DNA of 46,496 bases from Escherichia phage SandraMuster_Bas78. The notes under the pieces are model-generated. The model searched no databases, was not told the origin of the DNA, and was given only the letters and a program-made list of their open reading frames with translations. The translations under genes were made by a program, and so were the position numbers. The DNA lies in the sequence record PQ850625.1; one strand, 5' to 3'. Below, one piece after another: positions 1,254-42,025 of this stretch (position 1 is its first letter; every line of letters starts with the position of its first letter).

Positions 1254-2678
1254 ATGGCTCGTAAACGACTCTCCGCGCTGGCAATCGAAAAACTTGAACA
1301 GGTAGTTGGCAACTCAACTGCAAAGCCTGAATCAGCAGTTTTTGGGCTTGTAGATAAGTTACTTCAGGATGGTTCTCCCAATGTCGTAAAGCGACTTAAG
1401 ATGACAGCCACTGGGGTATCTGAAACTGATGAAGAGCCAACAATATTAATTCCTGAGCGGATGGAGCTTATCCTTTACCCACGGCGCTTTAAGGTGTTTT
1501 ATGGTGGTAGGGGCAGTTCCAAGAGCCGAACGTGTATATCCTACCTTATCGAAAAGGCAAGGTTCCGCAACAGTCGCGTTGGTTGTTTTCGTGAGATACA
1601 GAACTCAATCAAAGAATCAAGCTATGCAGAGCTGGTCGATGAGATAAACAGGAAGGGGCACGCTCAGGAATATCGTTGCGTTGATGGTGAGATAACGCAC
1701 CACTCAACGAGATCAAAGTTTGTTTTCCGTGGACTGTGGCGAAATATAACCGCCATCAAGGGTATGGCTGGTCTGACTGATGTATTCTGCGAAGAGTCTG
1801 AAAACATCAGTCAGGTGTCATGGGATACGCTGATTCCAACAGTTCGCGCCGCTGGCTCTGAAATTATTATTGTTTTTAACCCAAATAAAGAGACAGACCC
1901 GACGTGGACTAACTTTGTTGAGCCTTACATCGACAAGATGGTTGATGGCATATATCAGGATGATGACATAGTTGTTGTTAATGTTAACTACGTCCACAAC
2001 CCGTGGTTCACGGAAGAACTTAAACAGCATATGAACCAGATGAAGGCGGTGGATTATGACCGCTATCTGTGGGTGTATGAAGGATTATTCAACAAGCGGT
2101 CTGAGGAAGCTGTGCTTGGCGGGAAATGGCAAACGCTGGACTTCGAGCCATCTCCCGAATGGGGAGGGCCATATTATGGCATTGACTTTGGTTTTTCTCA
2201 GGATGCAACCGCAGCAACAGAATCATATGTAGAAGATTTGGGAGATGGGCGCAGAAATCTATATATCTATCGTGACTTTGCAAAGGTTGGCCTTGAGATA
2301 ACTGACACGCCGGAAGCGATGCGCTCAGCATTCCCAAATTCAGAGAAGTACAGGTGGTATGGGGATTGCGCAAGGCCTGAAACAATAAGCCATATACGAC
2401 GATCTGGATTCGATATTCATCCGTGCGCAAAATGGCCGGGTAGCATTGAGGACGGGATTACGTGGCTGCGTGGGTGTGACAGAATTTACGTACACTCAAG
2501 ATGTAAGCACGTCATTGAAGAGATGACAATGTACAGCTACAAGGTGGATAAATTAACAGGAAACATACTCCCTGACATAGTTGATAAGTACAATCACGCG
2601 ATTGATAGCCTACGCTATGGCCTTGGTGACCACATCGTTCAGCGCGGTAGCGGAATGCTAATCCGGCGCAGGCGATAA
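1254..2678 (+). CDS. terminase large subunit
   Basis: ATG at 1254 inside track ORF 1185..2678 (track start is TTG); Walker A-like FYGGRGSSKSRT near N-terminus followed by long nuclease-length C-terminal region, typical TerL layout. Confidence 0.88.
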   Translation: MARKRLSALAIEKLEQVVGNSTAKPESAVFGLVDKLLQDGSPNVVKRLKMTATGVSETDEEPTILIPERMELILYPRRFKVFYGGRGSSKSRTCISYLIEKARFRNSRVGCFREIQNSIKESSYAELVDEINRKGHAQEYRCVDGEITHHSTRSKFVFRGLWRNITAIKGMAGLTDVFCEESENISQVSWDTLIPTVRAAGSEIIIVFNPNKETDPTWTNFVEPYIDKMVDGIYQDDDIVVVNVNYVHNPWFTEELKQHMNQMKAVDYDRYLWVYEGLFNKRSEEAVLGGKWQTLDFEPSPEWGGPYYGIDFGFSQDATAATESYVEDLGDGRRNLYIYRDFAKVGLEITDTPEAMRSAFPNSEKYRWYGDCARPETISHIRRSGFDIHPCAKWPGSIEDGITWLRGCDRIYVHSRCKHVIEEMTMYSYKVDKLTGNILPDIVDKYNHAIDSLRYGLGDHIVQRGSGMLIRRRR

Positions 2679-2754
2679 ATCCGCATAACCACACTTGACC
2701 AATCTACACCGAGCGCATAGTATAATCTACATCATGCTTACCGGAGATATCACT

Positions 2755-2961
2755 ATGCGCAGCTATGCAGGATTCACACAGGAGGAAAAAGAGCAGGTTT
2801 ATTCACTGGCTCGGGCTGGTGTGCCTGATGATGTGATTTGCCGTCGGTATGACATCGACGAGGATTTCCTGCTGCGCGTTTTGGATGACGTTTTCGTTAA
2901 CCTGCAGGAGAAGCGCGGGTACAAGGGTATCTGCTGCAAGAATGATTTTTTGAGAGGGTGA
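2755..2961 (+). CDS. hypothetical protein
   Basis: Internal ATG of track ORF 2695..2961; preceded by TATAAT-containing intergenic region. Confidence 0.35.
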   Translation: MRSYAGFTQEEKEQVYSLARAGVPDDVICRRYDIDEDFLLRVLDDVFVNLQEKRGYKGICCKNDFLRG

Positions 2962-2963
2962 TT

Positions 2964-3167
2964 ATGAGGGGTTTTGTAAGAGATTTCCTGTTTATTGGCA
3001 TTAAGTACACCATTGCACTGGTGATTGCTGTTCCGCTTATCTGGTTGATTAGATGGGAGGAGCCAAGTATTGATGACATTATAAACTGGCAGGTTTTCAG
3101 ACTTGTTATCGGCTTGTGGATTATTTCAGCTATTGCCGCATGGTGGATTAATCATGTTCAGAAATAA
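2964..3167 (+). CDS. small membrane protein (two predicted TM helices)
   Basis: ATG at 2964 preceded by GAGAGGGTG; two hydrophobic stretches in translation. Confidence 0.4.
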   Translation: MRGFVRDFLFIGIKYTIALVIAVPLIWLIRWEEPSIDDIINWQVFRLVIGLWIISAIAAWWINHVQK

Positions 3168-3561
3168 ATTAAAGAAAATAATCCGCGATGCTGCGGATAA
3201 GAAGTACACCAAAAAGATTGACATATCATTTATCGACGGCACTGGACTGTACAATCACGCATGCCACCTGAATGCAGTGAACCGTGCACGGGATGGTAGT
3301 TCGTGCGCAGTGGTTGAGGTGGTTATGATTAATGATGATGGCGCAACAGCGCATTACATCAATATGCAGTCAGACGGCGCATACATCGACTACACGCTTG
3401 GATGGCACTGGTCTGGTGCTGATTACCGGTTTGTGCGGTTTGTTCCGTTTACTGAGTGGCCCGATATCACAGGATCGTTAAGCAAACTGAAAGCTGAACT
3501 GTGTAAGCCAGTGGCTAAATGGCAGAGGTTATTGATGGTAACTGATGGTGAACTTTGTTGA
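3154..3561 (+). CDS. hypothetical protein
   Basis: ATG at 3154 within track ORF 3103..3561. Confidence 0.45.
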   Translation: MFRNKLKKIIRDAADKKYTKKIDISFIDGTGLYNHACHLNAVNRARDGSSCAVVEVVMINDDGATAHYINMQSDGAYIDYTLGWHWSGADYRFVRFVPFTEWPDITGSLSKLKAELCKPVAKWQRLLMVTDGELC

Positions 3562-3569
3562 GGTGAGTG

Positions 3570-3743
3570 ATGAAAATCGAAGGTGATTACGGGCAGCATA
3601 TTATGGTTGATAAGGATTTCAAGTATGGTAACGACCTATTAGTAGTTAGGCAAACTGGTGATGTAATCGTCGTTGCAATTGAGCAAGCAGAGCAGCTTAT
3701 CGAAGTCCTGCAACGCTGGGTTAATGGTGAGGAGATTGAGTGA
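3570..3743 (+). CDS. hypothetical small protein (57 aa)
   Basis: ATG preceded by GAGGTGAGTG; ORF just below the 60 aa track cutoff; stop overlaps next start (ATGA). Confidence 0.35.
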   Translation: MKIEGDYGQHIMVDKDFKYGNDLLVVRQTGDVIVVAIEQAEQLIEVLQRWVNGEEIE

Positions 3744-8100: not shown

Positions 8101-8140
8101 TTGATGTAGATACTATGCACCACCACTCAATCTACGTCAA
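8101..8140. promoter_or_regulatory. inverted repeat TTGATGTAGAT ... ATCTACGTCAA in divergent intergenic region
   Basis: Two copies of the recurrent AATCTACRYCA motif in inverted orientation about 18 bp apart, between minus-strand island and lysis cassette. Confidence 0.45.
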
Positions 8141-8917: not shown

Positions 8918-9153
8918 AAAAGCTAAGCAACTGGCTGCTCGGCGCGTGGATTTCATTCTGCTCACTATTGCAGCTATGGCCTGATGCAATGATGCACGTG
9001 TGGGTAATGATGCCGGACGACCTGAAAGCGGCGCTACCGCCAATCGTGGTCAAAGGTGTAAGCTACTCCATCATGCTGGTTGGTATTCTCGGAAAAATGC
9101 ACGGCATGAGGAAGGAGAACCGGAGGCTGCGCAATGATGTCAATTCTCGCTAA
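8914..9153 (+). CDS. putative holin (two TM segments, charged C-terminus)
   Basis: 79 aa with hydrophobic stretches WLLGAWISFCSLLQLW and VSYSIMLVGILG and basic tail; located between endolysin and spanin genes. Confidence 0.4.
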   Translation: MKKLSNWLLGAWISFCSLLQLWPDAMMHVWVMMPDDLKAALPPIVVKGVSYSIMLVGILGKMHGMRKENRRLRNDVNSR

Positions 9154-9625
9154 ATACTGGCGACCACTGGCAATTATTATAATTGTTGTCTCTGGCGCGT
9201 TGTGGGCGCGTAGCGAAATCATCAGCTACGGCGACCAACGATACGCAGAAGGCAAATCCCAAGCAATCGCCGAACAGAAGGCCGCAGACGAACAAGAGGA
9301 GCAACGACGCAATGCAGAACTGCAAAAGATTCAGGCTGACGCACAGCAAAGGATTGACGCTGCGCGCAATGATGCTGTCAATGCTGCTGCTAAGTCTGGC
9401 AGGTTGCAGCAACAGCTCGCAAATATCCGCAAGCAGCTCGTCGGATATTCCACCGCTGAGTCCATTGGCAATCCAGCCGCAGAAACCGGAGTTTTGCTCT
9501 CCGACGTGCTCAGCAAATCTGTCGAAAGAAATCGACAACTGGCAGATTACGCTGACAGGGCAAGAGAAGCAGGATTAGCGTGTGAGGCGCAGTATAATTC
9601 GCTGCGCAATAAAAAAGCCCCGTAA
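9134..9625 (+). CDS. i-spanin (Rz-like)
   Basis: N-terminal TM helix (LAIIIIVVSGALWA) then long charged coiled-coil region; last gene of lysis cassette; embedded lipoprotein ORF in +1 frame. Confidence 0.6.
   Translation: MMSILAKYWRPLAIIIIVVSGALWARSEIISYGDQRYAEGKSQAIAEQKAADEQEEQRRNAELQKIQADAQQRIDAARNDAVNAAAKSGRLQQQLANIRKQLVGYSTAESIGNPAAETGVLLSDVLSKSVERNRQLADYADRAREAGLACEAQYNSLRNKKAP
9369..9578 (+). CDS. o-spanin (Rz1-like lipoprotein) embedded within the Rz-like gene
   Basis: Alternate frame inside Rz ORF encodes MLSMLLLSLAGCS (signal plus lipobox LAGC) followed by Pro/Ser-rich region. Confidence 0.5.
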   Translation: MMLSMLLLSLAGCSNSSQISASSSSDIPPLSPLAIQPQKPEFCSPTCSANLSKEIDNWQITLTGQEKQD

Positions 9626-9638
9626 TGGGGCTTGTGTT
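9611..9638 (+). terminator. rho-independent terminator after lysis cassette
   Basis: AAAAAAGCCCCGTAATGGGGCTTGTGTTT. Confidence 0.6.
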
Positions 9639-10942: not shown

Positions 10943-10987
10943 TTGACGTTTCTACATCACTTAGTCAATACTTATTGACGTAGATTG
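10943..10987. promoter_or_regulatory. divergent control region with two copies of the TTGACGT-TCTAC motif
   Basis: TTGACGTTTCTACATCA and TTGACGTAGATTG between divergently transcribed gene blocks. Confidence 0.45.
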
Positions 10988-17067: not shown

Positions 17068-17071
17068 ACTG

Positions 17072-17097
17072 AACCCGCATAATGCGGGTTTTTTATT
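17072..17097 (+). terminator. rho-independent terminator
   Basis: ACCCGCATAATGCGGGTTTTTTATT. Confidence 0.65.
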
Positions 17098-17124
17098 GGG
17101 GATTCCATGGATGCAAAATAAAAG

Positions 17125-17150
17125 AAAAGCCCCATGACGGGGCTTTTGAT
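17125..17150 (-). terminator. bidirectional hairpin terminator ending the minus-strand MTase/clamp operon
   Basis: AAAAGCCCCATGACGGGGCTTTT, A-run and T-run on both sides. Confidence 0.6.
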
Positions 17151-17152: not shown

Positions 17153-17692
17153 CTACAGACGCATCGGCATAACAACAATCTTAGCAGTCTCGCCAGATGG
17201 CGCATTAAGACAGCAAACTGCGGCATTTGTGTTTCCATTAAGTTCAAATTTGATACAACTGAATTTAGGATTAAACAGCTTCGCCACTTTCTCAACGTCA
17301 ACCAGATATCCAGCATTGAAGCCAATTTCCTCTGCTGGCAAGGTCTGCTTCGGAATGACGCGATCAATATCAGGGAATCGCCCGTCAATCTCTTCACAGA
17401 TACCAGCACCAACCATAACGCCAGCTTCATCATGATACGTTGCAATTTTCGACTTTGTATCAATGATGGCGTGGTCATAGCGTTTTGTTGGTGACTTGCC
17501 AATCTTGATAATCACATTTTCTGTAAGATTATTATCATGGTTTCCACCAATAAATGCGCGATGACCGTCAGTTGATGCAATACGACCATCAGGCATAAAG
17601 CAAATGCCATTCAGGTAATACCGCACATCGTTGCGCGCCTGAAATATTAATGCTGATTCAAGTAATAGTTTGCCGATTTTTAGTTTCATCAC
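17153..17692 (-). CDS. truncated beta sliding clamp (DnaN) homolog, domains II-III only
   Basis: Translation contains DVRYYLNG, TDGHR, DGRFPD, EIGFN and C-terminal VVMPMRL in the same order as conserved blocks of bacterial DnaN; only 179 aa; start overlaps upstream ORF stop (TGATG). Confidence 0.7.
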   Translation of the reverse strand: MMKLKIGKLLLESALIFQARNDVRYYLNGICFMPDGRIASTDGHRAFIGGNHDNNLTENVIIKIGKSPTKRYDHAIIDTKSKIATYHDEAGVMVGAGICEEIDGRFPDIDRVIPKQTLPAEEIGFNAGYLVDVEKVAKLFNPKFSCIKFELNGNTNAAVCCLNAPSGETAKIVVMPMRL

Positions 17693-17862
17693 TTCACCTT
17701 AATCATATGCTGTTTTGCAACCTTCAGGCACTCCTCAAAAATGCCACCCTTCTTTGCGCTCTGATTGCGCTTGTAATACTGAACTGCCGCATCAATTGCC
17801 ATCTGGTCGATTTCAGGCAGTTTGGTGCGTAGTTGTTTTTCAATGAATTGTTCTGGTGTCAT
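17689..17862 (-). CDS. hypothetical small protein (57 aa), translationally coupled
   Basis: Minus-strand ATG overlaps MTase stop (TAATG) and its stop overlaps the DnaN-like start; below track cutoff. Confidence 0.4.
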   Translation of the reverse strand: MTPEQFIEKQLRTKLPEIDQMAIDAAVQYYKRNQSAKKGGIFEECLKVAKQHMIKVK

Positions 17863-18662
17863 TAAACGGACCTCATGAATGCTTTAATGAATTCTGCTGC
17901 GACTTGTGGAACTATGGCATTGCCATAACCGCGCAATCGTCCCACTCTTGCGGATACCCCATGAGTTGCCTCGCAAAATCCGCCTGGTATGACTCTAGTT
18001 TCCTTATCTGCTCCATGGTTGGGTTTCCATGAATCCCATAAACATGAAGCCACATCTGGCGATAAAGAGTATCGTTCCTGAATTTTCCGTCCTTTCTGTA
18101 AAATGTCTTGCTGAGATCCCCGTAATCCTTCCATCCTCGCGCCGTTGGTGTCGCCCATCCTCGCGCCAAAGATGATTCTTTTCCTTTCCTGTGGAGAGCC
18201 GACGCTGCAAGCTGGCAATACTGACGCCCCGCAGGCGTAGCCTTTGTCTTCCAGGTTAAGGAATACAAAATCGAGCCAGTGCTTCCCAATTGCTGCTGCA
18301 ACCTGCTCTCCAAACAGCAATTCAGGCTTGCACTCTCTGATGAGCCTGAGAAATGCTGGGGCAAGGTGTCGATCGTCGTCAAATCCGAGAGACTTACCGG
18401 CAACGCTAAACGGCTGGCAAGGTGGTGATCCTGTCCAGAGTCGAGTGCTTTCTGGTATTCCTGCCAGCTGGAGTGCAATGGGCCACCCTCCGATTCCGGC
18501 AAAGAAGTGACACTGTGTAAATCCTTCCAGGTCTGAAGGGGTGACTTCGGTGATTGATCGTTCATCGACATATCCGTAAGGAATTAGTTTATTGTTAATT
18601 AATTCACGCAGCCATGCCGCTGCGCCCTTGTCCCACTCATTGTAATAGTGGACCATCATCAC
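17862..18662 (-). CDS. DNA (cytosine-5) methyltransferase
   Basis: C5-MTase motifs FAGIGG (motif I), PPCQPFS (motif IV, catalytic Cys), GEQV (ENV-like), GNAIVPQVA (motif X). Confidence 0.85.
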   Translation of the reverse strand: MMMVHYYNEWDKGAAAWLRELINNKLIPYGYVDERSITEVTPSDLEGFTQCHFFAGIGGWPIALQLAGIPESTRLWTGSPPCQPFSVAGKSLGFDDDRHLAPAFLRLIRECKPELLFGEQVAAAIGKHWLDFVFLNLEDKGYACGASVLPACSVGSPQERKRIIFGARMGDTNGARMEGLRGSQQDILQKGRKIQERYSLSPDVASCLWDSWKPNHGADKETRVIPGGFCEATHGVSARVGRLRGYGNAIVPQVAAEFIKAFMRSV

Positions 18663-19468
18663 ATCTTCTCCAGAATTGCCATCACCTCGTGAATATCAGC
18701 AACAGGAATCTGGATAAACTCCTCATTCTCTGCCACTACATGACCAGCAGGAAGAATAACGTGGTCAGCTGGCTTCAGTAACTCAATCAGTCGGTCTACT
18801 GGCTTAATCTTTTTCGACTTAAGCACCTTCGCCGTTACCTTATCCTTGCCTTGCGCCTTCGCTTCTTCGACTGCCTCGTCGATAACTTTAACCGCATCAT
18901 CGCCATGTTCGCGAGTTACTGCTACGGCATTTGCATAGCTGATTTGCCCTGCACTGATTCGCGCTTTTACTTCGGCTGGCACATCACCCAGTGACAGGTG
19001 CATCTGCACGTCAGAAACTGAGCGCCCTACCTTCTTGGCGATTTCCTCGTTGGTCCAGCCAAAACCCTTCAGTCGCGTGTAAGCCTTTGCGCGTTCAAAC
19101 GGGTCAAGCTGCTTACCCTGACTGGACGACACCATGAAGGCGATTTTATCTGCTTCGCCTCCTGTGAAATCCTTGCACTCAATACGAACAATTGGTGCGC
19201 CACGCTCAATGGCACGCAACGCTCCGAGATAGCGATGCTGACCATCAAGAATGCGGATTCCCTTCTCGTCTGGAATAACTGTTAATGCTGGCAATGGCTG
19301 ACCTGACTCCCAGCACTGCGCGAAATACTCCACATGCTGCTCATCTGCTTCGCGGATGTTGTATCCTGGTTCCAGATAGATTTGCTCAACTGGCACGAGA
19401 TATGTCTTGTTTACCGCGATTCCGTTGCGCGTTTCTTTGTCTGAATAGATTTTGCTGAGTGTTTTCAT
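18659..19468 (-). CDS. ParB-like nuclease-domain protein with HTH
   Basis: ILDGQHRYLGALRA matches the ParB N-terminal domain signature; central HTH-like segment WTNEEIAKKVGRSVSDVQMHL; ATGA overlap with MTase. Confidence 0.7.
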   Translation of the reverse strand: MKTLSKIYSDKETRNGIAVNKTYLVPVEQIYLEPGYNIREADEQHVEYFAQCWESGQPLPALTVIPDEKGIRILDGQHRYLGALRAIERGAPIVRIECKDFTGGEADKIAFMVSSSQGKQLDPFERAKAYTRLKGFGWTNEEIAKKVGRSVSDVQMHLSLGDVPAEVKARISAGQISYANAVAVTREHGDDAVKVIDEAVEEAKAQGKDKVTAKVLKSKKIKPVDRLIELLKPADHVILPAGHVVAENEEFIQIPVADIHEVMAILEKM

Positions 19469-19827
19469 TGTTTCTTTCCTAATGCTTTCTTGATAGATTC
19501 TTCAGCTAACAGCAATTCTTCTGGGTATTGTTCATTCCAGTTTTGTTTGTATGCTTTGTTAAGCATTTTTTGCAGAGCTTCAAGCAACTCAGGTGCCGCC
19601 GCCATTAAATTAAAATCATGCTCAACACTGCCATCAATCTCCCAATGCATCCCGTTGTATTTGGCACCCTTACTAGAGAAGGCGATGTTTCTGTCATCGT
19701 CATAGTGACAACCCGGCGTGTCATCAGCTCTACAAGACGGGTAAACCGCTGCGCAACCACCGCGAATATCTGCAACCCACGGACCGGGCGTGCCTTTAAA
19801 TTCTTTCATCTCCATCACCTCTAACAT
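19465..19827 (-). CDS. hypothetical protein, first gene of ParB/MTase operon
   Basis: Track ORF; stop overlaps ParB-like start. Confidence 0.5.
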   Translation of the reverse strand: MLEVMEMKEFKGTPGPWVADIRGGCAAVYPSCRADDTPGCHYDDDRNIAFSSKGAKYNGMHWEIDGSVEHDFNLMAAAPELLEALQKMLNKAYKQNWNEQYPEELLLAEESIKKALGKKQ

Positions 19828-19836: not shown

Positions 19837-19883
19837 TTTCTACGTCACTAACTATAAACGCCTCATCAATCTACGTCAACAGG
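19837..19883 (+). promoter_or_regulatory. regulatory region with two direct copies of the TCTACGTCA motif
   Basis: TTTCTACGTCA and AATCTACGTCAACAGG upstream of plus-strand operon starting 19927. Confidence 0.4.
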
Positions 19884-23812: not shown

Positions 23813-23815
23813 TAA

Positions 23816-23846
23816 ATAAAAAAGCCCCGGAAGGGGCTTTGTTTTA
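23816..23846. terminator. bidirectional terminator between convergent genes
   Basis: AAAAAAGCCCCGGAAGGGGCTTTGTTTTA. Confidence 0.6.
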
Positions 23847-25321: not shown

Positions 25322-27804
25322 TGGCTGAAGAAGTCGGCGGAATTGTCTATGAAGTCGGGATGGATGTATCCGGGCTGACGACTGGCGGGCAAAAGGTAAA
25401 CAAGGTTCTTCAGGAGATTGAGAAGTCAATTGATGAGTCAATTACCGGGATAAATAAACTTGATACCGGATTAAAAAACACCGCATCGACAGCTGAGAAA
25501 TCTGGCAGGAGTTTCTCCAGTTTAAATAACGCCATGAGACAGGGCGGCTACCAGATTCAGGACTTTGTAGTTCAGGTGCAGAGCGGACAATCGGCACTCG
25601 TTGCTTTAAGTCAACAAGGTAGTCAGTTATTAAGCGTCTTTGGTTCTGGAGGCGCAGTTGCCGGTGCATTGCTAACCATCGGTACGGTAATCGTTGGCTC
25701 ATTAATTGCTGGCATGGATAACGCAGCCGTTTCCACAAAGGCGCTCACCGCAGCACAGCAGCGACTTGCTGACATATTCCAGCTTTCTGCTAATGGAGTT
25801 GTAGTTCTCTCTGACAAATTCGCAACACTGGCTAAACAGTCAGAAAACGCCGCCAGAGCACAGTTAACAATGGCTCTGATTGATGCAAACAATATCATCA
25901 AGGCTTCAGTGCAGGGCGTCAATGAGCTTGGCGACGCACTTGGCTCATGGAAAGCGCCACTATCAGCCGCCATCAGCCAGCTTGACACACTGAAAGCAAG
26001 AGGCATTGATGTAAACACAGCACTCAAGAATCTTGGCGGGACATATGAGGGTAATATCCTCGGACTAAACCAGCTTAATCAGGTGGTAAAAAGTCTGGCA
26101 GATGAGTTTGGCATAAGCGCCGAGGATGCTTTGAAGCTGGTTGAAGCTCTGGCGGCGGTGAGAAAAAACGCCAATCCTGAAACAATAGCAGAATTACGTG
26201 ACCTGACTGTTGACCTTAGTCAGAAATATGGATATGCAAACAAGTCGCTATCTGAACTGACTGGCAAGGTTGGCGAATATTCCATTTCAGCAGATCAGGC
26301 AGCAGAATCTACAAAAATGGCTACCGACATGCTTAACGGTCACAAGGTAGCTTCAGAAGAGGATGCGAGAGCAACTGAAGAAAACACGAAAAGGCTTCAG
26401 GCTTACATCCAGTCGATCAAGGAAGAAGGTGAAACCATCGCCTTTACCGCCAGACAAAAGGCTCTGTACAGAGCAGAGCAGCTTGGAGCAAGTGACGCAG
26501 ATAAGCAAACAATCAACTCGTCGTTCGACAAGATAGAGGCTTACAAAGCTGAACTTGCCGCAAAGAAAGAGCAGGAAAGGCAAGATAAAAAACGCATAAC
26601 TGCATCAACAAAACAGGCCAATCTTGAAGAGTCGGTAGCTCAGAAGCTGGAAAAATTACGCCAGCAAACCATGCTCAATGCCACGTCTACCAGCGAACTA
26701 TCACGCGAGCAAGCAATTCTCAACGCGCAGCAATCGCTTGGCAAGGCCGCCACTCAGGAGCAAATAAAACTGGCTGGTGAGTACGCTGCGAAGATTTGGG
26801 ACCAGAAGAATGCATTGAAGGAGCAAGCAGAAGCGGAAAAAGAAAAGCAACGCGTAGAAAAATCATATCAAGGGTTGCGCGCTATTGCATCGCCAACCAC
26901 TGGCATTGACAGTGAATACCAGCAACGTATGGCTGACCTTGACGCCTACGCCGCAGCATATCCGCAGAAAATCACGGAGATTGAGCAGACTCGCGCAGCA
27001 ATTGAAGCACAATACCGCCAACAGCGAATGGACGCTATGTGGGCTGAATGGCAGCAACAAAGCCTCGGTGCGCAACTGTTCGGTACCGCTCTTGATTCAG
27101 CAATGAGTACGGCATCAAACAGCATCACCGGATTGCTTACCGGAACGATGAGCGTTCAGGATGCCATGCGCAGCCTCGGCTCTACGGTGCTGAACTCTCT
27201 GGTAAACAGCTTCATTGAAATGGGTGTGCAGTGGGTTAAATCTGCTGTTATGGGGCAGACTGCACAGGTTGCGGCTACGGCAACCACAACGGCGGCGCAA
27301 ACGGCAGGATTGGCAACCACAACAGCAGCATCTACGGCGGCGGCAGCAACCACTACGGCGGCATGGACTCCGGCAGCAATCGTCGCATCAATCGGCTCAT
27401 TCGGCGGGGCGGCTGCAATTGGGGTAGGTGCCGTTCTCGGAGCGCTGGCGATGGGCATTGCTGGCAAGCGTAAAAATGGTGGCCCTGTTAGTGCCGGAAG
27501 TATGTACGAAGTTGGCGAAAATGGCTTGCCTGAAATATTCCAGGCGTCCAACGGCCGCCAGTATATGATTCCCGGTAACGATGGATCAGTTATCAGCAAC
27601 AAAGACCTTACAGGAGGTGGTAGTGGCGTTGTGGTTTATAATAACGTGATAAATAACAGCTCAGCGCAGGTTAGCAGCAGCGCCAGAGATAACGGTGACG
27701 GCAGCGTGACAATTGAGACTATCGTTAGTGATATTGAGAACAACGGCGCGATAGGGCAGGCTATTTCAAGAAATTACTCAACAAACCGGAGAGCAACAGA
27801 ATAA
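25321..27804 (+). CDS. tail length tape measure protein
   Basis: 827 aa, largest tail ORF, long Ala/Gln/Glu-rich helical regions and C-terminal hydrophobic Ala/Gly-rich segment. Confidence 0.85.
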   Translation: MAEEVGGIVYEVGMDVSGLTTGGQKVNKVLQEIEKSIDESITGINKLDTGLKNTASTAEKSGRSFSSLNNAMRQGGYQIQDFVVQVQSGQSALVALSQQGSQLLSVFGSGGAVAGALLTIGTVIVGSLIAGMDNAAVSTKALTAAQQRLADIFQLSANGVVVLSDKFATLAKQSENAARAQLTMALIDANNIIKASVQGVNELGDALGSWKAPLSAAISQLDTLKARGIDVNTALKNLGGTYEGNILGLNQLNQVVKSLADEFGISAEDALKLVEALAAVRKNANPETIAELRDLTVDLSQKYGYANKSLSELTGKVGEYSISADQAAESTKMATDMLNGHKVASEEDARATEENTKRLQAYIQSIKEEGETIAFTARQKALYRAEQLGASDADKQTINSSFDKIEAYKAELAAKKEQERQDKKRITASTKQANLEESVAQKLEKLRQQTMLNATSTSELSREQAILNAQQSLGKAATQEQIKLAGEYAAKIWDQKNALKEQAEAEKEKQRVEKSYQGLRAIASPTTGIDSEYQQRMADLDAYAAAYPQKITEIEQTRAAIEAQYRQQRMDAMWAEWQQQSLGAQLFGTALDSAMSTASNSITGLLTGTMSVQDAMRSLGSTVLNSLVNSFIEMGVQWVKSAVMGQTAQVAATATTTAAQTAGLATTTAASTAAAATTTAAWTPAAIVASIGSFGGAAAIGVGAVLGALAMGIAGKRKNGGPVSAGSMYEVGENGLPEIFQASNGRQYMIPGNDGSVISNKDLTGGGSGVVVYNNVINNSSAQVSSSARDNGDGSVTIETIVSDIENNGAIGQAISRNYSTNRRATE

Positions 27805-32563: not shown

Positions 32564-34471
32564 ATGGCTACCACACCAACTAATAAACCAATTCCGTCAG
32601 AAGATCCTCGCGACCTTAAATTTAATGCAGGGAAAATCGACGAGGTGGTAACATCTAACGCGCATTACTACACCGACCGCTTCGGAGTTCGCCGGTTTAC
32701 TATCGCCGGTTTCCAATATACAGCAGAAGAAGCTATCCGTAATTATGGCTATATCACGATGGACAGTTTTGAGGATGGGGCGACACTGACGTTGCCTAAT
32801 CAGGTTCTGCGCTATGAGGCTACTGGCGAATATTACCGCTGGGACGGTGAATTTCCTAAAACTGTTTCTGCCGGCTCAACACCTGAAGCATCTGGCGGTG
32901 TTGGTATTGGTGCATGGGTTAGTGTTGGTGATGCTTCATTGCGCAGTGATTTGGCCCTAAGCACTGGCGCAGGGTTAGTTGGGACAACATCCGGCAGGAC
33001 CGTACAGGCAGAGTTTGACCATTTCAAAATAGGGTATATGACACCCGATGATTTCGGCGCGGTAGGTGATGGTGCCACCGACGACACCACGCCTTTGCAA
33101 CAGGCTATTGACTATTGTTCAAGCAACGGTATCGCGTTAAGAATCCCCGCAAAATCTTATGTTTGGAATGGCGGTATTATAACTTCACCCATAACAATAA
33201 TCGGTGACAGACGTCCAGATTACAATTTTAGCTCCAATTCTATGTCTAACGGGTCTGTCATAATTGGCAATTTAAGATTTTCCGCAAGCCAGGTGATTAT
33301 TAAGTCACTTGGTGTGCGTAGGCCTACAGGCTCCCCCGGAGATTGTCTGGTGTTATCGACCGATAACTATGCTGGTGGGTCTTGTATTGTTCAAGATGTA
33401 GTTGCCGCGGGCCTTTCCGGTTCGGACACGTACCACAGCGTTCTTGTTGAAGGCTACGATTCCGCGCATGTATCTCAAATAACTGGCGGTTATAATCTTT
33501 TTGGCCTCGCGATTAAGTCAAGAAACGTTGTTGCCAGAGGCGTAATAACCGTAAGCTGTGATACTGGCGTTATCATTAAATCTGATAGTGAGTTCAGCAC
33601 GGCAAAAAATGTGGTGCTGGACGGGCACATTAATGTCGGTAATGGTGTTTCTAGTCAAGGTGTTTGGATTTACAGCACAACCGCACAACTTGAGCGTATT
33701 ACCTGCGCAAACTTACAAAGCATCGATTCCGCTATACATATGCGGATTAAGTCCGAAAACGTAGCTAATGACGTGCAAATTGTTGGGGCAAATTATTCAG
33801 GATCTACTTATGCGGATGTGCTCGTCGAAGGCACTTCGGCTGGCACGTTGTACAATGTTAGTTTAGATAGTATAACCGCAGTAAATAGCCAGAAATTTAT
33901 GGCTGCAGGTTTCTGTGAACAACTGATGGTAACAGGATTCTATGGGTCCCTGAAACCTGGCGCTCCCGCCGATACTGCGTTTGAGGTTAGCGCCGCCGTA
34001 GGGCTTTTTAGCGGGTCAAATATCCAACTAGTCCGTCAATACAGCAGTGACCTAATGACAATAAATCTCGGTAACAGTTATCTTAATAATAGATTATCAT
34101 CTGTTAAGGCGAAAGTAATAGGAAACGGCAAACCTAGGCCGGGGTATAAAGAACAGAATCTTAGCGGCGCTGCGGCTACAATGATTGTTGGCGACAGTTT
34201 GGGGCCCTCTGGGGTTGTGTCTGTCACCGCGATATCCGCCGGCAGTTCATTCAGCAGTATTGCTATTAATGACGACCATGGTCAGCCGGTTAAGCCAGGT
34301 TTTCTTCTAATAATCCGAAACGCATCCGCTATCTCGTTCGTTATGAACCATAATCTAGGGCCTGGTGGAATCGCAAATAACGGGGCGGTTGGTAAGACCA
34401 TTGCGGGCGGAGGCACTATAATGTACGTTTTTGACGGGACGAATTGGCGTCAAACTCCATCTATAGCTTAA
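32564..34471 (+). CDS. tail fiber / tailspike with pectate-lyase-type beta-helix domain
   Basis: DFGAVGDGATDDTTPLQQAIDYC motif characteristic of pectate lyase superfamily (right-handed beta-helix) phage tailspikes; last structural gene. Confidence 0.6.
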   Translation: MATTPTNKPIPSEDPRDLKFNAGKIDEVVTSNAHYYTDRFGVRRFTIAGFQYTAEEAIRNYGYITMDSFEDGATLTLPNQVLRYEATGEYYRWDGEFPKTVSAGSTPEASGGVGIGAWVSVGDASLRSDLALSTGAGLVGTTSGRTVQAEFDHFKIGYMTPDDFGAVGDGATDDTTPLQQAIDYCSSNGIALRIPAKSYVWNGGIITSPITIIGDRRPDYNFSSNSMSNGSVIIGNLRFSASQVIIKSLGVRRPTGSPGDCLVLSTDNYAGGSCIVQDVVAAGLSGSDTYHSVLVEGYDSAHVSQITGGYNLFGLAIKSRNVVARGVITVSCDTGVIIKSDSEFSTAKNVVLDGHINVGNGVSSQGVWIYSTTAQLERITCANLQSIDSAIHMRIKSENVANDVQIVGANYSGSTYADVLVEGTSAGTLYNVSLDSITAVNSQKFMAAGFCEQLMVTGFYGSLKPGAPADTAFEVSAAVGLFSGSNIQLVRQYSSDLMTINLGNSYLNNRLSSVKAKVIGNGKPRPGYKEQNLSGAAATMIVGDSLGPSGVVSVTAISAGSSFSSIAINDDHGQPVKPGFLLIIRNASAISFVMNHNLGPGGIANNGAVGKTIAGGGTIMYVFDGTNWRQTPSIA

Positions 34472-34473
34472 AA

Positions 34474-34500
34474 CTAAGGCCCCGAAAGGGGCCTTTTATC
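34474..34500. terminator. bidirectional terminator between tail fiber and SSB genes
   Basis: AAGGCCCCGAAAGGGGCCTTTTATCTTT. Confidence 0.6.
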
Positions 34501-34512: not shown

Positions 34513-34998
34513 TTAGAAGGGTATTGAATCATCGAAGTCTATCGGATGCTCATTGCCTCCTTGTATGCTTTGTTGTTTTTGCTGTTGTTGTTGCTGTTGC
34601 GATTGTTGGCCTGATTGCTGTCGTGGTTGCTGCTGACTGGAATCATCACGTTTACCACCAAGCATCTGCATAACGCCGCCCACCTGTGGAATAACAATCT
34701 CAGTGGTGTATCGGTCTACGCCATTGCTGTCAGTCCACTTACGAGTGCGTAGCTGACCTTCGATATAAACCTGCGATCCTTTGCGAAGGTATTCTCCTGC
34801 AACTTCTGCAAGTTTCCCGAAGATGACAACGCGATGCCATTCAGTTTGCTCTTTCTTTTCTCCTGTTTGCTTGTCCTTCCACTGTTCAGATGTTGCAACA
34901 GAAAGATTGGCAATTGCAGAGCCTGATGCTGAATATTTAACTTCAGGGTCGTTGCCGAGAGTGCCGACAATAATTACTTTATTTACGCCGCGTGCCAT
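34513..34998 (-). CDS. ssb: single-stranded DNA-binding protein
   Basis: OB-fold N-terminal region typical of bacterial/phage SSB, Gln-rich linker, acidic C-terminal tip DFDDSIPF. Confidence 0.93.
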
Positions 34999-35001
34999 TT
35001 A

Positions 35002-36057
35002 TTAAAATCCTTCAATTGGAGTTGGTTTGTGTTCTGTTTTTTCTTCCTGCGGTTCTGGCTGCTGTGGTTGCGGTTTAGCCAGTTTTGCAGGATTGAAATT
35101 ATCCTGCGGAGTTATTACCACAGGAGATAATTGCTCATCATTGATAAAAGACTCAATGCGATCATATTCAGCGGCAGAAGCAGCCAGAGAAGGCCAGATT
35201 GCGCGAATTTTATCTTTCAGGTTATCAGGTATTGATTTTGCTTCTTCCTTCAGGCCTTCCATGCCTTTTGCTGCAGAAAGCTGAAGTCTTGAGCGCCATG
35301 ACTCAAACTCTTCGTCAACTTTAACTCCAGAGTCCACCCATTTGATGAGTCCGCGACCATGCGCCTCGCCAATGTATCCATGACGAACACTTTCACGACC
35401 AGACTCAAAGAAGATTGGGCGTAGTTCTTCTGGTAATTTGGTGAACTCCTGGATTTTTCCTCCATCGTGCATCATCATGCTCACGGTCATCTCGAACATG
35501 AAATCTTTCTCGCACACTGGCTGCAAACCAAGAGACACAGGTTCCTTCGGGTTTGCGAAATCAGTTTTCTGACGGGCGCGAAGGCATACAATGATATGCA
35601 TATTGCTTTGCAGCATGGCGTTCATGAACTTCTTGTGTTCAGCTTTGGCGCGCTTCCAGTCAGCCATCTTTTTACCGTTAAGCAGCGGCTTTTCAGCAAT
35701 CTCCGTGCAACTGCCTTCACCTTCCCATTCATGCGAACCTGAATCAATAACAAGAACCTTAACGCCGGCAGCCTGAAACTCTTCAATGGCCTGACGGTAA
35801 CGGGCCGGGCTGAATGGAGCATACATATCAGCGTGCAGGAATTTGCCATCAAGGATGTTTGAGTACAGGCGACCGCGACCGTTTTCAGTATCAAGGAATC
35901 CGATTTCTTCTGGTGAATCAACCATCCCGCGAGCCAGCTTAAGTGCGCTATATGTTTTGCCGCTACCTGACTGGCCTGAAATGCCGATGACCACGCGAGA
36001 ACCTGAACGCTCTGCTGGTTTAATATTGAGAATACCCATTTGCATTACCTCACTCAA
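35002..36057 (-). CDS. RecA-fold ATPase, Sak4-like (AAA_24) recombination protein
   Basis: Walker A GISGQSGSGKT near N-terminus; adjacent to SSB and exonuclease; long Pro/Glu/Gln-rich C-terminal extension. Confidence 0.55.
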   Translation of the reverse strand: MSEVMQMGILNIKPAERSGSRVVIGISGQSGSGKTYSALKLARGMVDSPEEIGFLDTENGRGRLYSNILDGKFLHADMYAPFSPARYRQAIEEFQAAGVKVLVIDSGSHEWEGEGSCTEIAEKPLLNGKKMADWKRAKAEHKKFMNAMLQSNMHIIVCLRARQKTDFANPKEPVSLGLQPVCEKDFMFEMTVSMMMHDGGKIQEFTKLPEELRPIFFESGRESVRHGYIGEAHGRGLIKWVDSGVKVDEEFESWRSRLQLSAAKGMEGLKEEAKSIPDNLKDKIRAIWPSLAASAAEYDRIESFINDEQLSPVVITPQDNFNPAKLAKPQPQQPEPQEEKTEHKPTPIEGF

Positions 36058-36247
36058 ATTCTACAAAATCACCACCAACCATTTCGACGATAATGAATCC
36101 AGATTCATCATCATATGTTGCCTGCCATATAGCTCCAGTTTCGTCGCTTATGTTAAAGGTACCACCAAAAAAGTCAGCGCTATACCACTCATCTTCTTTA
36201 AATCTTTTGCTTGTTGAGCTTGCACAAAATAATTTCATTTGCATCAC
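36050..36247 (-). CDS. hypothetical protein
   Basis: Track ORF between exonuclease and ATPase genes. Confidence 0.4.
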   Translation of the reverse strand: MMQMKLFCASSTSKRFKEDEWYSADFFGGTFNISDETGAIWQATYDDESGFIIVEMVGGDFVEFE

Positions 36248-36255
36248 CTCACTAA

Positions 36256-37200
36256 TTATAAATTAAACTGTTTTTTGAACCATTCAGGCGTTTCCATTTC
36301 TATGACAGGATTACCCATTGAATAACCGGGCCACGAATTGGCTTTTTTGCACGCCTTGTAAATTTCCATAGCGCCATGCAACTGAATTCGACCGATGCGT
36401 AATTGCTCTTCAGTCAAGCGAATTAACGCAGGAATAAATGGTGCTTTCTTTTCCTGAACGAGAAGATTAACAGAGCGTGGCGCATGACCATATGCCGCAA
36501 CAAACATGTCGTGCTGCATCGCCATTTTCATAAAGTACCCAAGTCTCGCAGCATGACGGAAAAACTCTTCTGGCTTGGCGCTCACCGCTGTTTTGTAGTC
36601 GATGATGTCGCCACCTTTGGTAAGGCAGTCAAAGCGAACTTTTGCCTTCTCTCCGTTAAGTTCACCTAGAATTGACACTTCAGCATAAGCACCAGCGAGA
36701 AGACTGCTGTAATAGCTGTTTGCGTGGATTACAGCACGCATTTGCTGAATAGCGTCATAATCACCACCTTCCAGCATTTGCTTTCCTACAGCAGCTTTTT
36801 CAGCCTCTTCACGGATGACATCGTAAATTTTCACTGGCTCGCCAGTCGCCTGGATGATTTTGATCACCTCAGCTTTCGACTTTCCTGAAAGTCCTTTGAT
36901 GCCTCGTTCTTTTGCCCATGAGTTCATATCACTTACAGTAACAAGCAGGTCATCACCAAAATCTTCTTTGGTTGGCATTCGTGCATATTCAGCATCAAAA
37001 CGCTCTGGTTCAAGCAACGCAGTATGGCTACCTGTACCGAATATAAGAGCTTTTGATTGCTCATCCTCTTCGTCTTTGTATCGCCATGCTGCTGGGCATC
37101 TGTCAAGTATATTCCATAATCCAGAACCATTAATGTGCTCTGTGTCAGCATGATAATCCTGATTGCTTAATTCATTGTTGAAATAAACTCTCATCATCAC
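36256..37200 (-). CDS. PD-(D/E)XK family exonuclease (RecB/Cas4/YqaJ-like)
   Basis: C-terminal GGDIIDYKT (D...D/ExK core) and recombination-module context. Confidence 0.55.
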   Translation of the reverse strand: MMMRVYFNNELSNQDYHADTEHINGSGLWNILDRCPAAWRYKDEEDEQSKALIFGTGSHTALLEPERFDAEYARMPTKEDFGDDLLVTVSDMNSWAKERGIKGLSGKSKAEVIKIIQATGEPVKIYDVIREEAEKAAVGKQMLEGGDYDAIQQMRAVIHANSYYSSLLAGAYAEVSILGELNGEKAKVRFDCLTKGGDIIDYKTAVSAKPEEFFRHAARLGYFMKMAMQHDMFVAAYGHAPRSVNLLVQEKKAPFIPALIRLTEEQLRIGRIQLHGAMEIYKACKKANSWPGYSMGNPVIEMETPEWFKKQFNL

Positions 37201-42023: not shown

Positions 42024-42025
42024 AA

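What the first reader, a model, noticed from the sequence alone, without database searches (positions are those of the whole stretch)
17153..19827. Tightly coupled minus-strand operon: hypothetical - ParB-like - C5 cytosine methyltransferase - small ORF - DnaN-like
Five genes are chained by overlapping stop/start codons (ATGA, TAATG, TGATG) and closed by a bidirectional terminator, inserted between the capsid and head-tail genes on the opposite strand. A ParB-N nuclease-fold protein next to a DNA methyltransferase is a recurring phage pairing, often interpreted as self-DNA protection against restriction. Adding a clamp mimic suggests one host-takeover/anti-defence cassette acting on host DNA metabolism.
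Basis: partly seen in the sequence, partly recalled or inferred. Interest (0 to 1): 0.6.

Follow-up and report, generated by a model that had tools for sequence, protein, structure and literature searches.

The report
Phage accessory operon hiding a nested gene
The five-gene minus-strand operon is real, but it holds a sixth gene nested in another reading frame of the DNA methyltransferase gene (a rare two-chain enzyme design), and its "DnaN-like" gene is a cut-down sliding clamp that keeps only the partner-binding pocket.

Summary
Five minus-strand ORFs (19827/19809..17153) are chained by ATGA, TGATG, TAATG and TGATG overlaps. A sigma-70-like promoter precedes them and a hairpin terminator follows. 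They sit between the capsid and head-tail genes of a Skatevirus-like siphophage (97-99% identical to Bas77-80).

The labels are right but incomplete.
- The C5-methyltransferase gene (frame A) contains a nested +1-frame ORF, B (18565..17912). ORF length, synonymous-codon shuffles, a conserved SD+ATG and substitution classes all show purifying selection on frame A in codons 1-165 and 241-265. In codons ~166-195 and 226-240 the signature favours frame B; codons 196-225 are mixed.
- This matches the architecture published for M.EcoHK31I, where the beta chain is encoded inside the alpha gene. No database annotates it here.
- Motifs II-III precede motif I in the A chain.
- The "DnaN-like" protein is beta-clamp domain II plus the C-terminal half of domain III. 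It keeps the clamp-binding-motif pocket and lacks domain I and the stretch holding I272/L273, which I recall as the ring-forming interface. PHROGs misnames it RusA-like.
- ParB plus the 57-aa gene form the constant backbone. The methyltransferase and the mini-clamp are facultative.

The "single anti-defence cassette" reading is only partly supported: BASEL reports these phages as markedly sensitive to restriction-modification systems.

The parts
19851..19879 (-). Sigma-70-like promoter of the operon (-35 TTGACG, 17 nt, -10 TATAGT). The -35 lies inside the 13-mer TTGACGTAGATTG.
   Evidence: 10 of 12 matches; the 13-mer occurs exactly three times in the window (8128-8140 -, 10975-10987 +, 19867-19879 -). 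With up to 2 mismatches there are 7 matches against 1.4 expected.
19465..19809 (-). ORF1, 114 aa (120 aa if started at 19827). Function unknown. This 5' slot is variable between relatives.
   Evidence: phrog_1273, E 1e-18. Homologues carry PF27050 Phage_P22_Y8K6 in precomputed hits. The slot holds an 'anti-restriction protein' plus a hypothetical protein in Bas77 and EaC in ST1UNAM.
18659..19468 (-). ParB/Spo0J/KorB-type protein, 269 aa: N-terminal ParB domain with DGQHRYLGA in place of GERRxRA, a ParB HTH, and a C-terminal region.
   Evidence: PF17762 HTH_ParB E 2.5e-11 and KorB domain E 4.5e-6. phrog_1033 E 3e-90. PDB 1vz0 Spo0J E 6e-13 over residues 40-202. Present in nearly all relatives of the operon.
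17862..18659 (-). C5-cytosine methyltransferase, alpha-type chain (frame A), 265 aa. Motif order is II-III, I, IV, VI, VIII, an unconstrained linker (about residues 166-240), then X.
   Evidence: PF00145 77.4 bits. M.HhaI E 8e-12. Putting residues 1-35 back after residue 68 raises the hhalign score against M.HhaI from 120 to 152 and closes the gap. Substitution classes show frame A constrained in codons 1-165 and 241-265.
17912..18565 (-). Nested +1-frame ORF 'B' (beta-type chain), 217 aa from ATG 18565 (an alternative ATG lies at 18571). Its N-terminal ~100 aa are unconstrained. A helix plus hairpin (SILYSLTWKTKATPAGRQY), a WATPTA motif and LMGYPQEW (motif IX-like) are conserved.
   Evidence: The frame is open in ~75 homologues against an expected 2-9 stops, and it has a conserved SD+ATG. 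NS exceeds SN in codons 166-195 and 226-240 (Fisher p 2e-8 against the A-only parts). hhalign places the C-terminal block on M.HhaI motif IX. Published precedent: M.EcoHK31I.
17689..17862 (-). 57-aa helical protein of unknown function. It travels with ParB in 33 of 35 ParB-bearing relatives.
   Evidence: phrog_4439 E 4e-23. Co-occurrence. No Pfam or NCBIfam match.
17153..17689 (-). Truncated beta-clamp ('mini-beta'), 178 aa: E. coli DnaN residues ~133-255 (domain II) joined to ~316-366 (C-terminal half of domain III).
   Evidence: PDB beta clamps E 1e-11, with two matched stretches, 136-302 and 316-366. The alignment shows a clean deletion of residues 256-315. Pocket residues R152 Y153 Y154 L155 T172 G174 H175 R176 P242 R246 V247 N320 Y323 V360-R365 are largely kept, with a few substitutions in the most distant members at 27-38% identity. 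279 phage records carry it.
17125..17147 (-). Intrinsic terminator closing the operon (AAAAGCCCCGTCATGGGGCTTTT followed by CTTTTATTTT).
   Evidence: It belongs to a family of four similar hairpins in the window (family D2).
17071..17091 (+). Convergent terminator of the neighbouring + strand 65-aa ORF.

Best explanation
This is an accessory transcription unit in a Skatevirus-like siphophage, driven by its own host-type promoter. It encodes six proteins, not five.

(a) The cytosine-5 methyltransferase is a two-chain enzyme of the M.EcoHK31I type.
- Frame A gives the large catalytic domain: motifs II-III, I, IV-VIII, and after an unconstrained bypass loop, motif X.
- A nested +1 frame gives a second chain. 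Its conserved C-terminal half occupies the place of the target-recognition region and motif IX.
- The two chains are inferred to assemble into the active enzyme, which methylates phage DNA at one specific site. That would protect only against restriction enzymes sharing that site.

(b) The ParB-like protein plus the 57-aa protein are the constant backbone. I infer a KorB/ParB-like DNA-binding switch or regulator acting on phage DNA.

(c) The last gene is a truncated beta clamp. It keeps the pocket that binds clamp-binding motifs but lacks domain I and the I272/L273 stretch that close the ring. No DNA polymerase was found among the replication-module ORFs. I therefore infer that it captures or recruits host clamp-binding proteins, Pol III first of all.

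Shown: gene structure, selection on both frames, homologies, pocket conservation and the modularity of the operon.
Inferred: translation of B, assembly of the A and B chains, the methylation target, and what ParB and the mini-clamp bind.
For: Operon anatomy.

Nested frame:
- The +1 frame is open for 223 of 266 codons here. Other genes of the window typically show 45-90. The only comparable case is the Rz/Rz1 spanin pair, a known nested gene.
- The +1 frame is open for most of the gene (about 70-98%) in ~75 IMG/VR homologues of 40-75% identity, whereas +2 is open for only 40-100 codons.
- Synonymous shuffles of frame A expect 2-9 stops in the B range. The probability of none is 0-0.07 per gene.
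- Similarity in the +1 frame is z = 3-14 above shuffles and exceeds +2.
- A conserved ATG lies inside A's V-D-E motif, with GGAG/AGGAG 6-8 nt upstream. That Asp codon is GAT in 38 of 45 sequences against 46% overall.
- Substitution classes against six close relatives: codons 1-165 and 241-265 have SN much greater than NS. Codons 166-195 and 226-240 have NS greater than SN. Fisher p = 2e-8 and 2e-4.
- Across 46 homologues B is more conserved than A in codons 131-140, 161-180 and 231-240.
- A chimera of A(1-166), B and A(motif X) aligns to M.HhaI residues 1-307 without a break (score 120). A alone stops at motif VIII (score 105). The B core alone lands on motif IX, P 0.024.
- The same two-frame layout appears under distant called B genes in L113 and L115.

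Published precedent with biochemistry: M.EcoHK31I (PMC2836561).

Mini-clamp. No polymerase in the replication module.

Modularity.
Against: - There is no direct evidence that B is translated. No proteomics or ribosome profiling was available.
- AlphaFold2 gave low confidence for B (mean pLDDT 55; only the hairpin reaches 75-86) and an unusable model for A (pLDDT 34, shallow alignment).
- A profile of B finds nothing in PDB sequences.
- A-B-A chimeras do not raise the Pfam PF00145 score, so assigning motif IX to B rests on hhalign and on position.
- The B-bias of substitutions in codons 166-240 (about 1.4:1 overall, 2.6:1 in its best parts) is weaker than the A-bias elsewhere (8:1).
- I could not test sequence homology to M.EcoHK31I itself because no sequence was available.
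- No convincing clamp-binding motif was found in phage proteins. No partner of the mini-clamp or of ParB was identified.
- Bas77-81 are sensitive to the RM systems tested.
Confidence: 0.6

Rival explanations
1. One reading: five genes form one dedicated host-takeover or anti-defence cassette. ParB and the methyltransferase work as a pair to protect phage DNA from restriction, and the clamp mimic disables host DNA metabolism.
For: All genes share one promoter and terminator and are translationally coupled. The 5' slot holds a gene annotated 'anti-restriction protein' in Bas77. The locus is a variable accessory region.
Against: The genes assort independently. The MTase is absent from many relatives that keep ParB, the 57-aa gene and the mini-clamp. 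The mini-clamp is absent or split in others. In 58 of the 79 IMG/VR MTase loci no ParB or mini-clamp relative was detected nearby. The closest phages are markedly RM-sensitive.
Confidence: 0.2
2. The nested +1 ORF is not expressed. The methyltransferase is a single A-frame polypeptide with a short, fast-evolving target-recognition region, and the open +1 frame is a by-product of sequence composition.
For: Gene callers and RefSeq annotate only frame A. The B model has low confidence and B has no PDB or Pfam relatives.
Against: Codon shuffles that keep the A protein predict 2-9 stops where none is found, in dozens of diverged genes. Substitutions in codons 166-195 and 226-240 are preferentially silent in B, not in A. 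The start codon and SD are conserved. The DnaN-like gene's +1 run is not conserved in relatives, which serves as a negative control. For M.EcoHK31I the nested chain is required for activity.
Confidence: 0.08
3. One polypeptide is made by two programmed frameshifts (+1 after motif VIII, -1 before motif X), giving a canonical methyltransferase.
For: The mosaic of selection (A, then B, then A) and the hhalign result for the chimera are collinear with a canonical enzyme.
Against: This model would not need frame A open through codons 166-240 or frame B open through codons 31-165, yet both are open in essentially all homologues, even across 270-390-codon linkers. I saw no slippery site on reading the window's junctions; no systematic motif search was run. 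B is conserved upstream of the supposed shift site.
Confidence: 0.05
4. The mini-clamp is a structural part of the phage replisome or of a ParB-based complex, for example oligomerising into a ring or binding a phage protein, rather than a decoy for host clamp partners.
For: It sits next to ParB-like genes in two lineages (this phage and Serratia phage Eta) and next to an Nmad5 gene in Dhillonvirus. It is next to a helicase gene in Eta.
Against: Domain I and the stretch holding I272/L273 are missing; that these form the dimer interface is my recollection. No phage protein has a convincing terminal clamp-binding motif. In Bcep43 it stands alone among head genes.
Confidence: 0.2

Closest known systems
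M.EcoHK31I (heterodimeric C5-methyltransferase of E. coli HK31; Lee, Kam and Shaw 1995, as summarised in PMC2836561)
   Same: The alpha chain carries motifs I-VIII and X. [quoted passage not shown] The N-terminal part of beta is dispensable. Both chains are needed for activity. All the architectural points are matched here.
   Different: Homology to M.EcoHK31I could not be tested because no sequence was available. [quoted passage not shown] Here motifs II-III precede motif I. The gene is phage-borne with no restriction partner.
M.AquI (natural alpha/beta split C5-methyltransferase)
   Same: [quoted passage not shown]
   Different: As I recall, in M.AquI the two ORFs are consecutive with a short overlap and motif X is on beta. 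Here beta is fully nested and motif X stays on alpha.
M.HhaI and canonical single-chain C5-methyltransferases (PF00145)
   Same: Motifs I (FAGIGG), IV (PPCQPFS), VI (GEQV for ENV), VIII (PQERKR) and X (GNAIVP) are present. hhalign probability is 99.5% after de-permutation.
   Different: N-terminal permutation (II-III before I). The small domain is in another frame. Pfam matches only profile positions 58-164.
E. coli beta sliding clamp DnaN
   Same: Clear sequence homology. The residues I recall from the E. coli beta-clamp literature as forming the clamp-binding-motif pocket are conserved, down to the C-terminal VVMPMRL.
   Different: Only about 1.5 of 3 domains remain. Domain I and residues 256-315 (which include I272/L273) are absent. 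It scores 36.9 bits against the NCBIfam cut-off of 137.65.
ParB/Spo0J/Noc/KorB CTP-dependent DNA clamps
   Same: An N-terminal ParB domain plus a ParB HTH. E 6e-13 to Spo0J, with weaker matches to Noc and KorB.
   Different: DGQHRYLGA stands where GERRxRA should be. There is no ParA partner and no recognisable parS-type repeat in the window. The phage is virulent-type, so partition is unlikely.
Rz/Rz1 embedded spanin genes
   Same: A same-strand +1 gene nested in another gene. A genuine example lies in this very window at 9134-9625.
   Different: The function is unrelated. Rz1 is short, while B spans 82% of its host gene.

Membership tests
C5-cytosine DNA methyltransferase (PF00145) | Score above Pfam's gathering threshold | tested here: met
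   77.4 bits against a cut-off of 22, but only profile positions 58-164 are matched.
C5-cytosine DNA methyltransferase (PF00145) | Catalytic motif IV with Pro-Cys, motif VI (ENV), motif VIII (QxRxR), motif I (FxGxG) and motif X (GNxV) | tested here: met
   PPCQPFS, GEQV (a variant of ENV), PQERKR, FAGIGG and GNAIVP, read from the translation and aligned to M.HhaI.
C5-cytosine DNA methyltransferase (PF00145) | Canonical linear order of motifs I to X on one polypeptide | tested here: not met
   Motifs II-III precede motif I; de-permutation raises the hhalign score from 120 to 152. The motif IX-like block lies in the +1 frame.
M.EcoHK31I-type nested heterodimeric C5-methyltransferase | Second chain encoded entirely within the first chain's gene in another frame | tested here: met
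   B (18565..17912) lies inside A (18659..17862) in the +1 frame. It is maintained in ~75 homologues with its own SD and ATG.
M.EcoHK31I-type nested heterodimeric C5-methyltransferase | Alpha carries motifs I-VIII and X; beta carries motif IX | tested here: inconclusive
   The alpha motifs are met. For beta, hhalign places LNPxxSRWLMGxPxEW on M.HhaI residues 262-289 (P 0.024), and the chimera aligns through motifs IX and X. However, Pfam and PDB profile searches give no independent hit.
M.EcoHK31I-type nested heterodimeric C5-methyltransferase | Both chains required for methylation | not testable with these tools
   This needs expression of alpha with the beta starts silenced, with and without beta in trans.
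M.EcoHK31I-type nested heterodimeric C5-methyltransferase | Sequence homology to M.EcoHK31I alpha and beta | not tested
   No M.EcoHK31I sequence was available. The original paper (PMC306636) is not held and the supplement of PMC2836561 is not held.
ParB/Spo0J family | ParB HTH DNA-binding domain | tested here: met
   PF17762 at 44.1 bits against a cut-off of 22.6. PDB 1vz0 E 6e-13.
ParB/Spo0J family | N-terminal CTP-binding box GERRxRA | tested here: not met
   The aligned segment reads DGQHRYLGA. There is a weak hit to the DGQHR domain TIGR03187, E 0.01, below its cut-off.
ParB/Spo0J family | Partner ParA ATPase and parS sites (partition system) | tested here: not met
   No ParA-like ORF in the operon. 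No repeated palindrome of parS type among the window's repeats.
Beta sliding clamp (DnaN) | Three homologous domains forming a head-to-tail dimeric ring | tested here: not met
   Only residues ~133-255 and ~316-366 are represented. TIGR00663 gives 36.9 bits against 137.65.
Beta sliding clamp (DnaN) | Hydrophobic clamp-binding-motif pocket between domains II and III | tested here: met
   19 pocket residues are conserved in the window protein and largely kept, with a few substitutions, in homologues at 27-38% identity. The residue list comes from my own knowledge of the E. coli beta-clamp literature.
RusA Holliday junction resolvase (the PHROG and RefSeq name for the last gene) | Similarity to RusA | tested here: not met
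   No RusA Pfam hit down to E = 1. All significant PDB hits are beta clamps. The name of phrog_3007 looks like a misannotation.

The most novel reading that the evidence does not exclude
The window's methyltransferase would be a representative of a very large class of phage and prophage C5-methyltransferases that is essentially unannotated. A profile of the beta C-terminus finds about 18,000 cluster representatives. In this class the whole small domain (variable recognition region plus motif IX) is a separate chain, nested in the +1 frame of a permuted large-domain gene. Recognition modules would then evolve under double-frame constraint.

Separately, the ParB, 57-aa and mini-clamp backbone would be a device by which siphophages that lack a polymerase hook host Pol III or other clamp-binding proteins onto phage DNA.
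Probability: 0.3. Interest if true: 0.8.

Novelty: new member of a known kind. Interest (0 to 1): 0.55.

Why it matters
- If the nested beta chain is real, current annotation of thousands of phage and prophage "DNA cytosine methyltransferase" genes is incomplete. RefSeq, PHROGs and Pharokka either miss a required subunit or file it under separate, unexplained families. Anyone cloning only the annotated ORF with altered codons, for example after codon optimisation, would destroy the enzyme.
- It also gives a natural, highly diversified set of two-chain methyltransferases of the kind already used to build targeted methylation tools from M.EcoHK31I.
- The mini-clamp is a compact, widespread phage protein that keeps only the partner-binding pocket of the host clamp. 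It is a testable candidate for how phages without their own polymerase engage or disturb the host replisome.
- The operon as a whole is an ordinary variable accessory region.

Tried and rejected
- AlphaFold2 on B (54-sequence alignment) gave mean pLDDT 55. On A (43 close sequences) it gave pLDDT 34. Neither model is fit for fold search, so no fold search was run.
- Pfam scan of the B frame: no family. Pfam on A-B-A chimeras: no gain in score or coverage.
- Profile of the B family against all PDB sequences: no hit even at E = 10.
- HMMER profiles of chimeras against PDB gave a higher score than A alone (72 against 61 bits), but the two alignments differ in depth, so I do not count this.
- Looked for in-frame canonical methyltransferases with a B-like recognition region among the top hits of the exhaustive search. 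Ten of ten long hits have no PF00145, so they are B-frame ORFs.
- P0039 and L082, where A-like and B-like parts are in one frame, break inside the catalytic domain. They look like indels or assembly errors.
- Regex scan for clamp-binding motifs in all window proteins: only internal, unconvincing matches.
- Search for parS-like repeats: none.
- The long +1 run in the DnaN-like gene is not conserved in relatives, so it is chance.
- Literature: 'Mte8' gave nothing relevant. No paper in the held library links overlapping genes with phage cytosine methyltransferases. Lee et al. 1995 is not held.
- My first guess that the phage was a Kagunavirus was wrong. It belongs to the Skatevirus cluster.
Full report
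**Identity of the window.** The region is 97-99% identical to Escherichia phages Bas80, Bas79 and Bas77. The BASEL paper places Bas77-81 in a Skatevirus cluster of 46-48 kb O-antigen-dependent siphoviruses. [quoted passage not shown]

**The observation.**
- Five minus-strand ORFs lie at the stated coordinates.
- The junctions are as described: ATGA, (G)TGATG, TAATG and (G)TGATG.
- A sigma-70-like promoter (TTGACG, 17 nt, TATAGT) lies at 19879..19851. A hairpin terminator lies at 17147..17125.
- The -35 lies inside a 13-mer, TTGACGTAGATTG. It occurs exactly three times in the window, at 8128-8140 (-), 10975-10987 (+) and 19867-19879 (-). Allowing 2 mismatches there are 7 matches against 1.4 expected. 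The operon therefore uses one of the phage's standard host-type promoters.
- The 'bidirectional terminator' is two convergent terminators placed back to back.
- The flanking + strand genes are head decoration, major capsid and a 65-aa ORF on one side, and membrane and head-tail genes on the other.

**The methyltransferase gene encodes two frames.**
- Frame A (18659..17862) passes Pfam PF00145 at 77 bits, but only over motifs IV-VIII.
- A 219-codon ORF in the +1 frame (18571..17912) hits a different PHROG that is also called 'DNA methyltransferase' (phrog_1008, E 1e-19).
- tblastn with this B frame finds 175 phage records at 30-60% identity over its full length. Under every listed match that carries an annotation, the feature is a methylase (a few listed records have none or are unannotated). 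In all three loci checked at that stage the match is +1 relative to frame A.
- The K1H GenBank record annotates both frames, as 'C-specific methylase' and 'Mte8-like protein'.

**Tests of selection on the nested frame.**
- In ~75 IMG/VR homologues of 40-75% identity, the +1 frame is open for most of the gene (about 70-98%). The +2 frame is open for only 40-100 codons.
- Synonymous-codon shuffles that keep each A protein expect 2-9 stops in the B range. The probability of none is 0-0.07 per gene.
- B-frame similarity exceeds the shuffle expectation by z = 3-14 and exceeds the +2 frame.
- The B start is a conserved ATG formed by the GAT-GAx of A's V-D-E motif. GGAG or AGGAG lies 6-8 nt upstream in many lineages. 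That Asp codon is GAT in 38 of 45 sequences, against 46% for Asp overall.
- Within the window this gene has the longest +1 run, 223 of 266 codons. The only comparable case is the Rz-like spanin gene. Its +1 ORF carries a lipobox (LLSLAGC), which marks the classical embedded Rz1. That is a positive control.
- The long +1 run of the DnaN-like gene is not conserved in relatives. That is a negative control.

**Which frame is constrained, and where.**
- Across 46 homologues A is conserved in codons 1-165 and 241-265. B is more conserved than A, and than the +2 frame, in codons 131-140, 161-180 and 231-240.
- I classed substitutions against six close relatives as silent or replacing in each frame.
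  - Codons 1-165 and 241-265 are dominated by changes silent in A.
  - Codons 166-195 and 226-240 are dominated by changes silent in B.
  - The counts of silent-in-A to silent-in-B changes are 40:5 in the A-only parts and 48:68 in codons 131-240, Fisher p = 2e-8. Against codons 31-130 the p value is 2e-4.
- The switch points fall just after motif VIII and just before motif X.
- As I recall the M.HhaI structure, its large domain is residues 1-193 plus 304-327, and its small domain and hinge are residues 194-303. On that basis frame A encodes the large domain and frame B sits where the small domain should be.
- hhalign agrees. A chimera of A(1-166), B and A(motif X) aligns to M.HhaI residues 1-307 without a break (score 120). 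A alone stops at motif VIII (score 105). The B core alone lands on motif IX, P = 0.024.
Residues 3-174 are corroborated.
- The N-terminus of A is permuted. Moving residues 1-35 after residue 68 raises the score to 152 and restores motifs I, II, III and IV in order.

**One chain or two.** Both frames stay open over their unconstrained parts. This holds even across 270- and 390-codon linkers in distant relatives where gene callers chose B (L113 and L115). B is also conserved upstream of the A-to-B switch. AlphaFold's only confident element, a hairpin with pLDDT 75-86, lies there. Two programmed frameshifts would need neither property. Two separate chains need both.

[quoted passage not shown] Both are required, and the first 42 residues of beta are dispensable (PMC2836561). 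[quoted passage not shown] I therefore file the gene as a new member of that known kind, with three caveats:
- Homology to M.EcoHK31I was not testable.
- Translation of B is inferred, not shown.
- The structure predictions were poor and the Pfam and PDB profile tests on B were negative.

**How widespread the design is.**
- A profile of the B C-terminus finds 17,923 cluster representatives. Ten of ten long ones lack PF00145.
- RefSeq E. coli prophage copies carry only the A annotation.
- I found no paper in the held library describing this for phage methyltransferases.

**The DnaN-like protein.**
- It matches E. coli beta clamp in two stretches.
- An alignment with distant family members shows beta residues ~133-255 joined to ~316-366, with a clean deletion of residues 256-315 and no domain I. 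Those members are Serratia phage Eta, a Dhillonvirus, Burkholderia phage Bcep43 gp15 and a Vibrio phage.
- The conserved blocks are DVRYYLNG, TDGHR, DGRFPDxxRVxP, IGFNxxYL and VVMPMRL. By my knowledge of the E. coli clamp, these are the residues that form the clamp-binding-motif pocket. The interface residues I272/L273 are deleted.
- The family occurs in 279 phage records. PHROGs and RefSeq wrongly name it 'RusA-like Holliday junction resolvase'.
- The replication module encodes two helicases, a primase, SSB, an exonuclease VIII and a Sak4-like protein, but no polymerase. The remaining large ORFs lie in the structural module and were not all profiled.
- I infer a soluble pocket module that captures or recruits host clamp-binding proteins. 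No partner was identified.

**ParB and the other genes.**
- The ParB-like protein aligns to Spo0J, ParB, Noc and KorB structures over its N-terminal domain and HTH. It has DGQHRYLGA where the CTP box GERRxRA should be.
- No ParA gene and no parS-like repeat was found.
- The 57-aa protein and ORF1 have no assignable function. ORF1 relatives carry PF27050.

**Modularity.**
- Across relatives, ParB and the 57-aa gene are the constant pair.
- The methyltransferase slot can be empty, with ParB abutting the 57-aa gene (L091). From gap sizes and record-level annotations, other small genes seem to fill it in some relatives.
- The mini-clamp is absent in L110 and L111 and split in Bas80.
- The 5' slot holds ORF1, EaC, or an 'anti-restriction protein'.
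- The B-frame product of the window's MTase gene is 100% identical in the Kagunavirus Bas71. In 58 of the 79 IMG/VR MTase loci no ParB or mini-clamp relative was detected nearby.
- The mini-clamp sits next to a ParB-like gene in phage Eta, next to an Nmad5 gene in a Dhillonvirus, and alone among head genes in Bcep43. Nmad5 is the reported trigger of Tmn defence (PMC11846954).

**Verdict.** 'One anti-defence cassette built on a ParB-methyltransferase pair' is only partly supported. What is really there is a variable accessory operon. Its most interesting content is (i) an M.EcoHK31I-type two-frame methyltransferase that nobody annotates, and (ii) a widespread truncated clamp that keeps only the partner-binding pocket. 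Both are testable with simple experiments.

Noticed in passing
window 9134-9625 (+) and 9183-9578 (+): An Rz-like spanin gene (phrog_312) holds an embedded +1 ORF carrying a lipoprotein signal, MMLSMLLLSLAGC. This is a classical Rz/Rz1 nested pair. It is the only other gene in the window with a +1 run comparable to the methyltransferase's.
   Followed up: partly
window 8128-8140 (-), 10975-10987 (+), 19867-19879 (-); near copies at 44990 (+), 45007 (+), 37870 (-): The 13-mer TTGACGTAGATTG, which contains a -35 hexamer, recurs at several likely promoters (7 matches with up to 2 mismatches against 1.4 expected). It could be a shared promoter class or an operator for a phage regulator.
   Followed up: partly
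window 37715-37856 and 40877-41018: A 142-nt direct repeat at 89% identity, in or next to two HNH/endonuclease VII-type genes (37197-37823 and 40224-40997, minus strand).
   Followed up: no
window 34513-44368: The replication module holds SSB, a Sak4-like protein, exonuclease VIII, an HNH endonuclease, two helicases, an endonuclease VII-like protein and a primase, but no DNA polymerase. The phage presumably depends on host Pol III.
   Followed up: partly
PHROG families phrog_3007, phrog_1008, phrog_31772, phrog_27243: phrog_3007 ('RusA-like Holliday junction resolvase') is really the truncated DnaN family. phrog_1008, phrog_31772 and phrog_27243 match the B (+1) frame translations tested here, not frame A.
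   Followed up: partly
L001 (Bas80) 3100-3636; L110, L111: In Bas80 the mini-clamp gene is split into two annotated CDS although tblastn still reads it at 88% identity. In two metagenomic relatives it is absent. The gene is therefore dispensable, at least in some hosts.
   Followed up: partly
PQ850615.1 (Bas71, Kagunavirus) 25584-26240: The B-frame product of the window's methyltransferase gene is 100% identical in a phage of another genus. This suggests recent horizontal transfer of the methyltransferase module.
   Followed up: no
L106 (Dhillonvirus vB_EcoS-101114BS4) 2176-3510: An Nmad5 gene (PF18757, E 1e-54) sits directly upstream of a mini-clamp homologue. Both are on the opposite strand among head genes, the same kind of placement as in this window. 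Nmad5 is the reported trigger of the Tmn defence system.
   Followed up: partly
L082 3001-3702; protein P0039: These are rare variants in which the A-type N-terminus continues in frame into B-type sequence. The frame changes inside the catalytic domain, so they are probably indels or assembly errors, not natural fusions.
   Followed up: partly
window 9608-9638, 17120-17150, 23815-23845, 34470-34500: A family of four similar GC-rich hairpins (AAAAAGCCCCnnnnGGGGCTTT) that look like the phage's standard intrinsic terminators.
   Followed up: no
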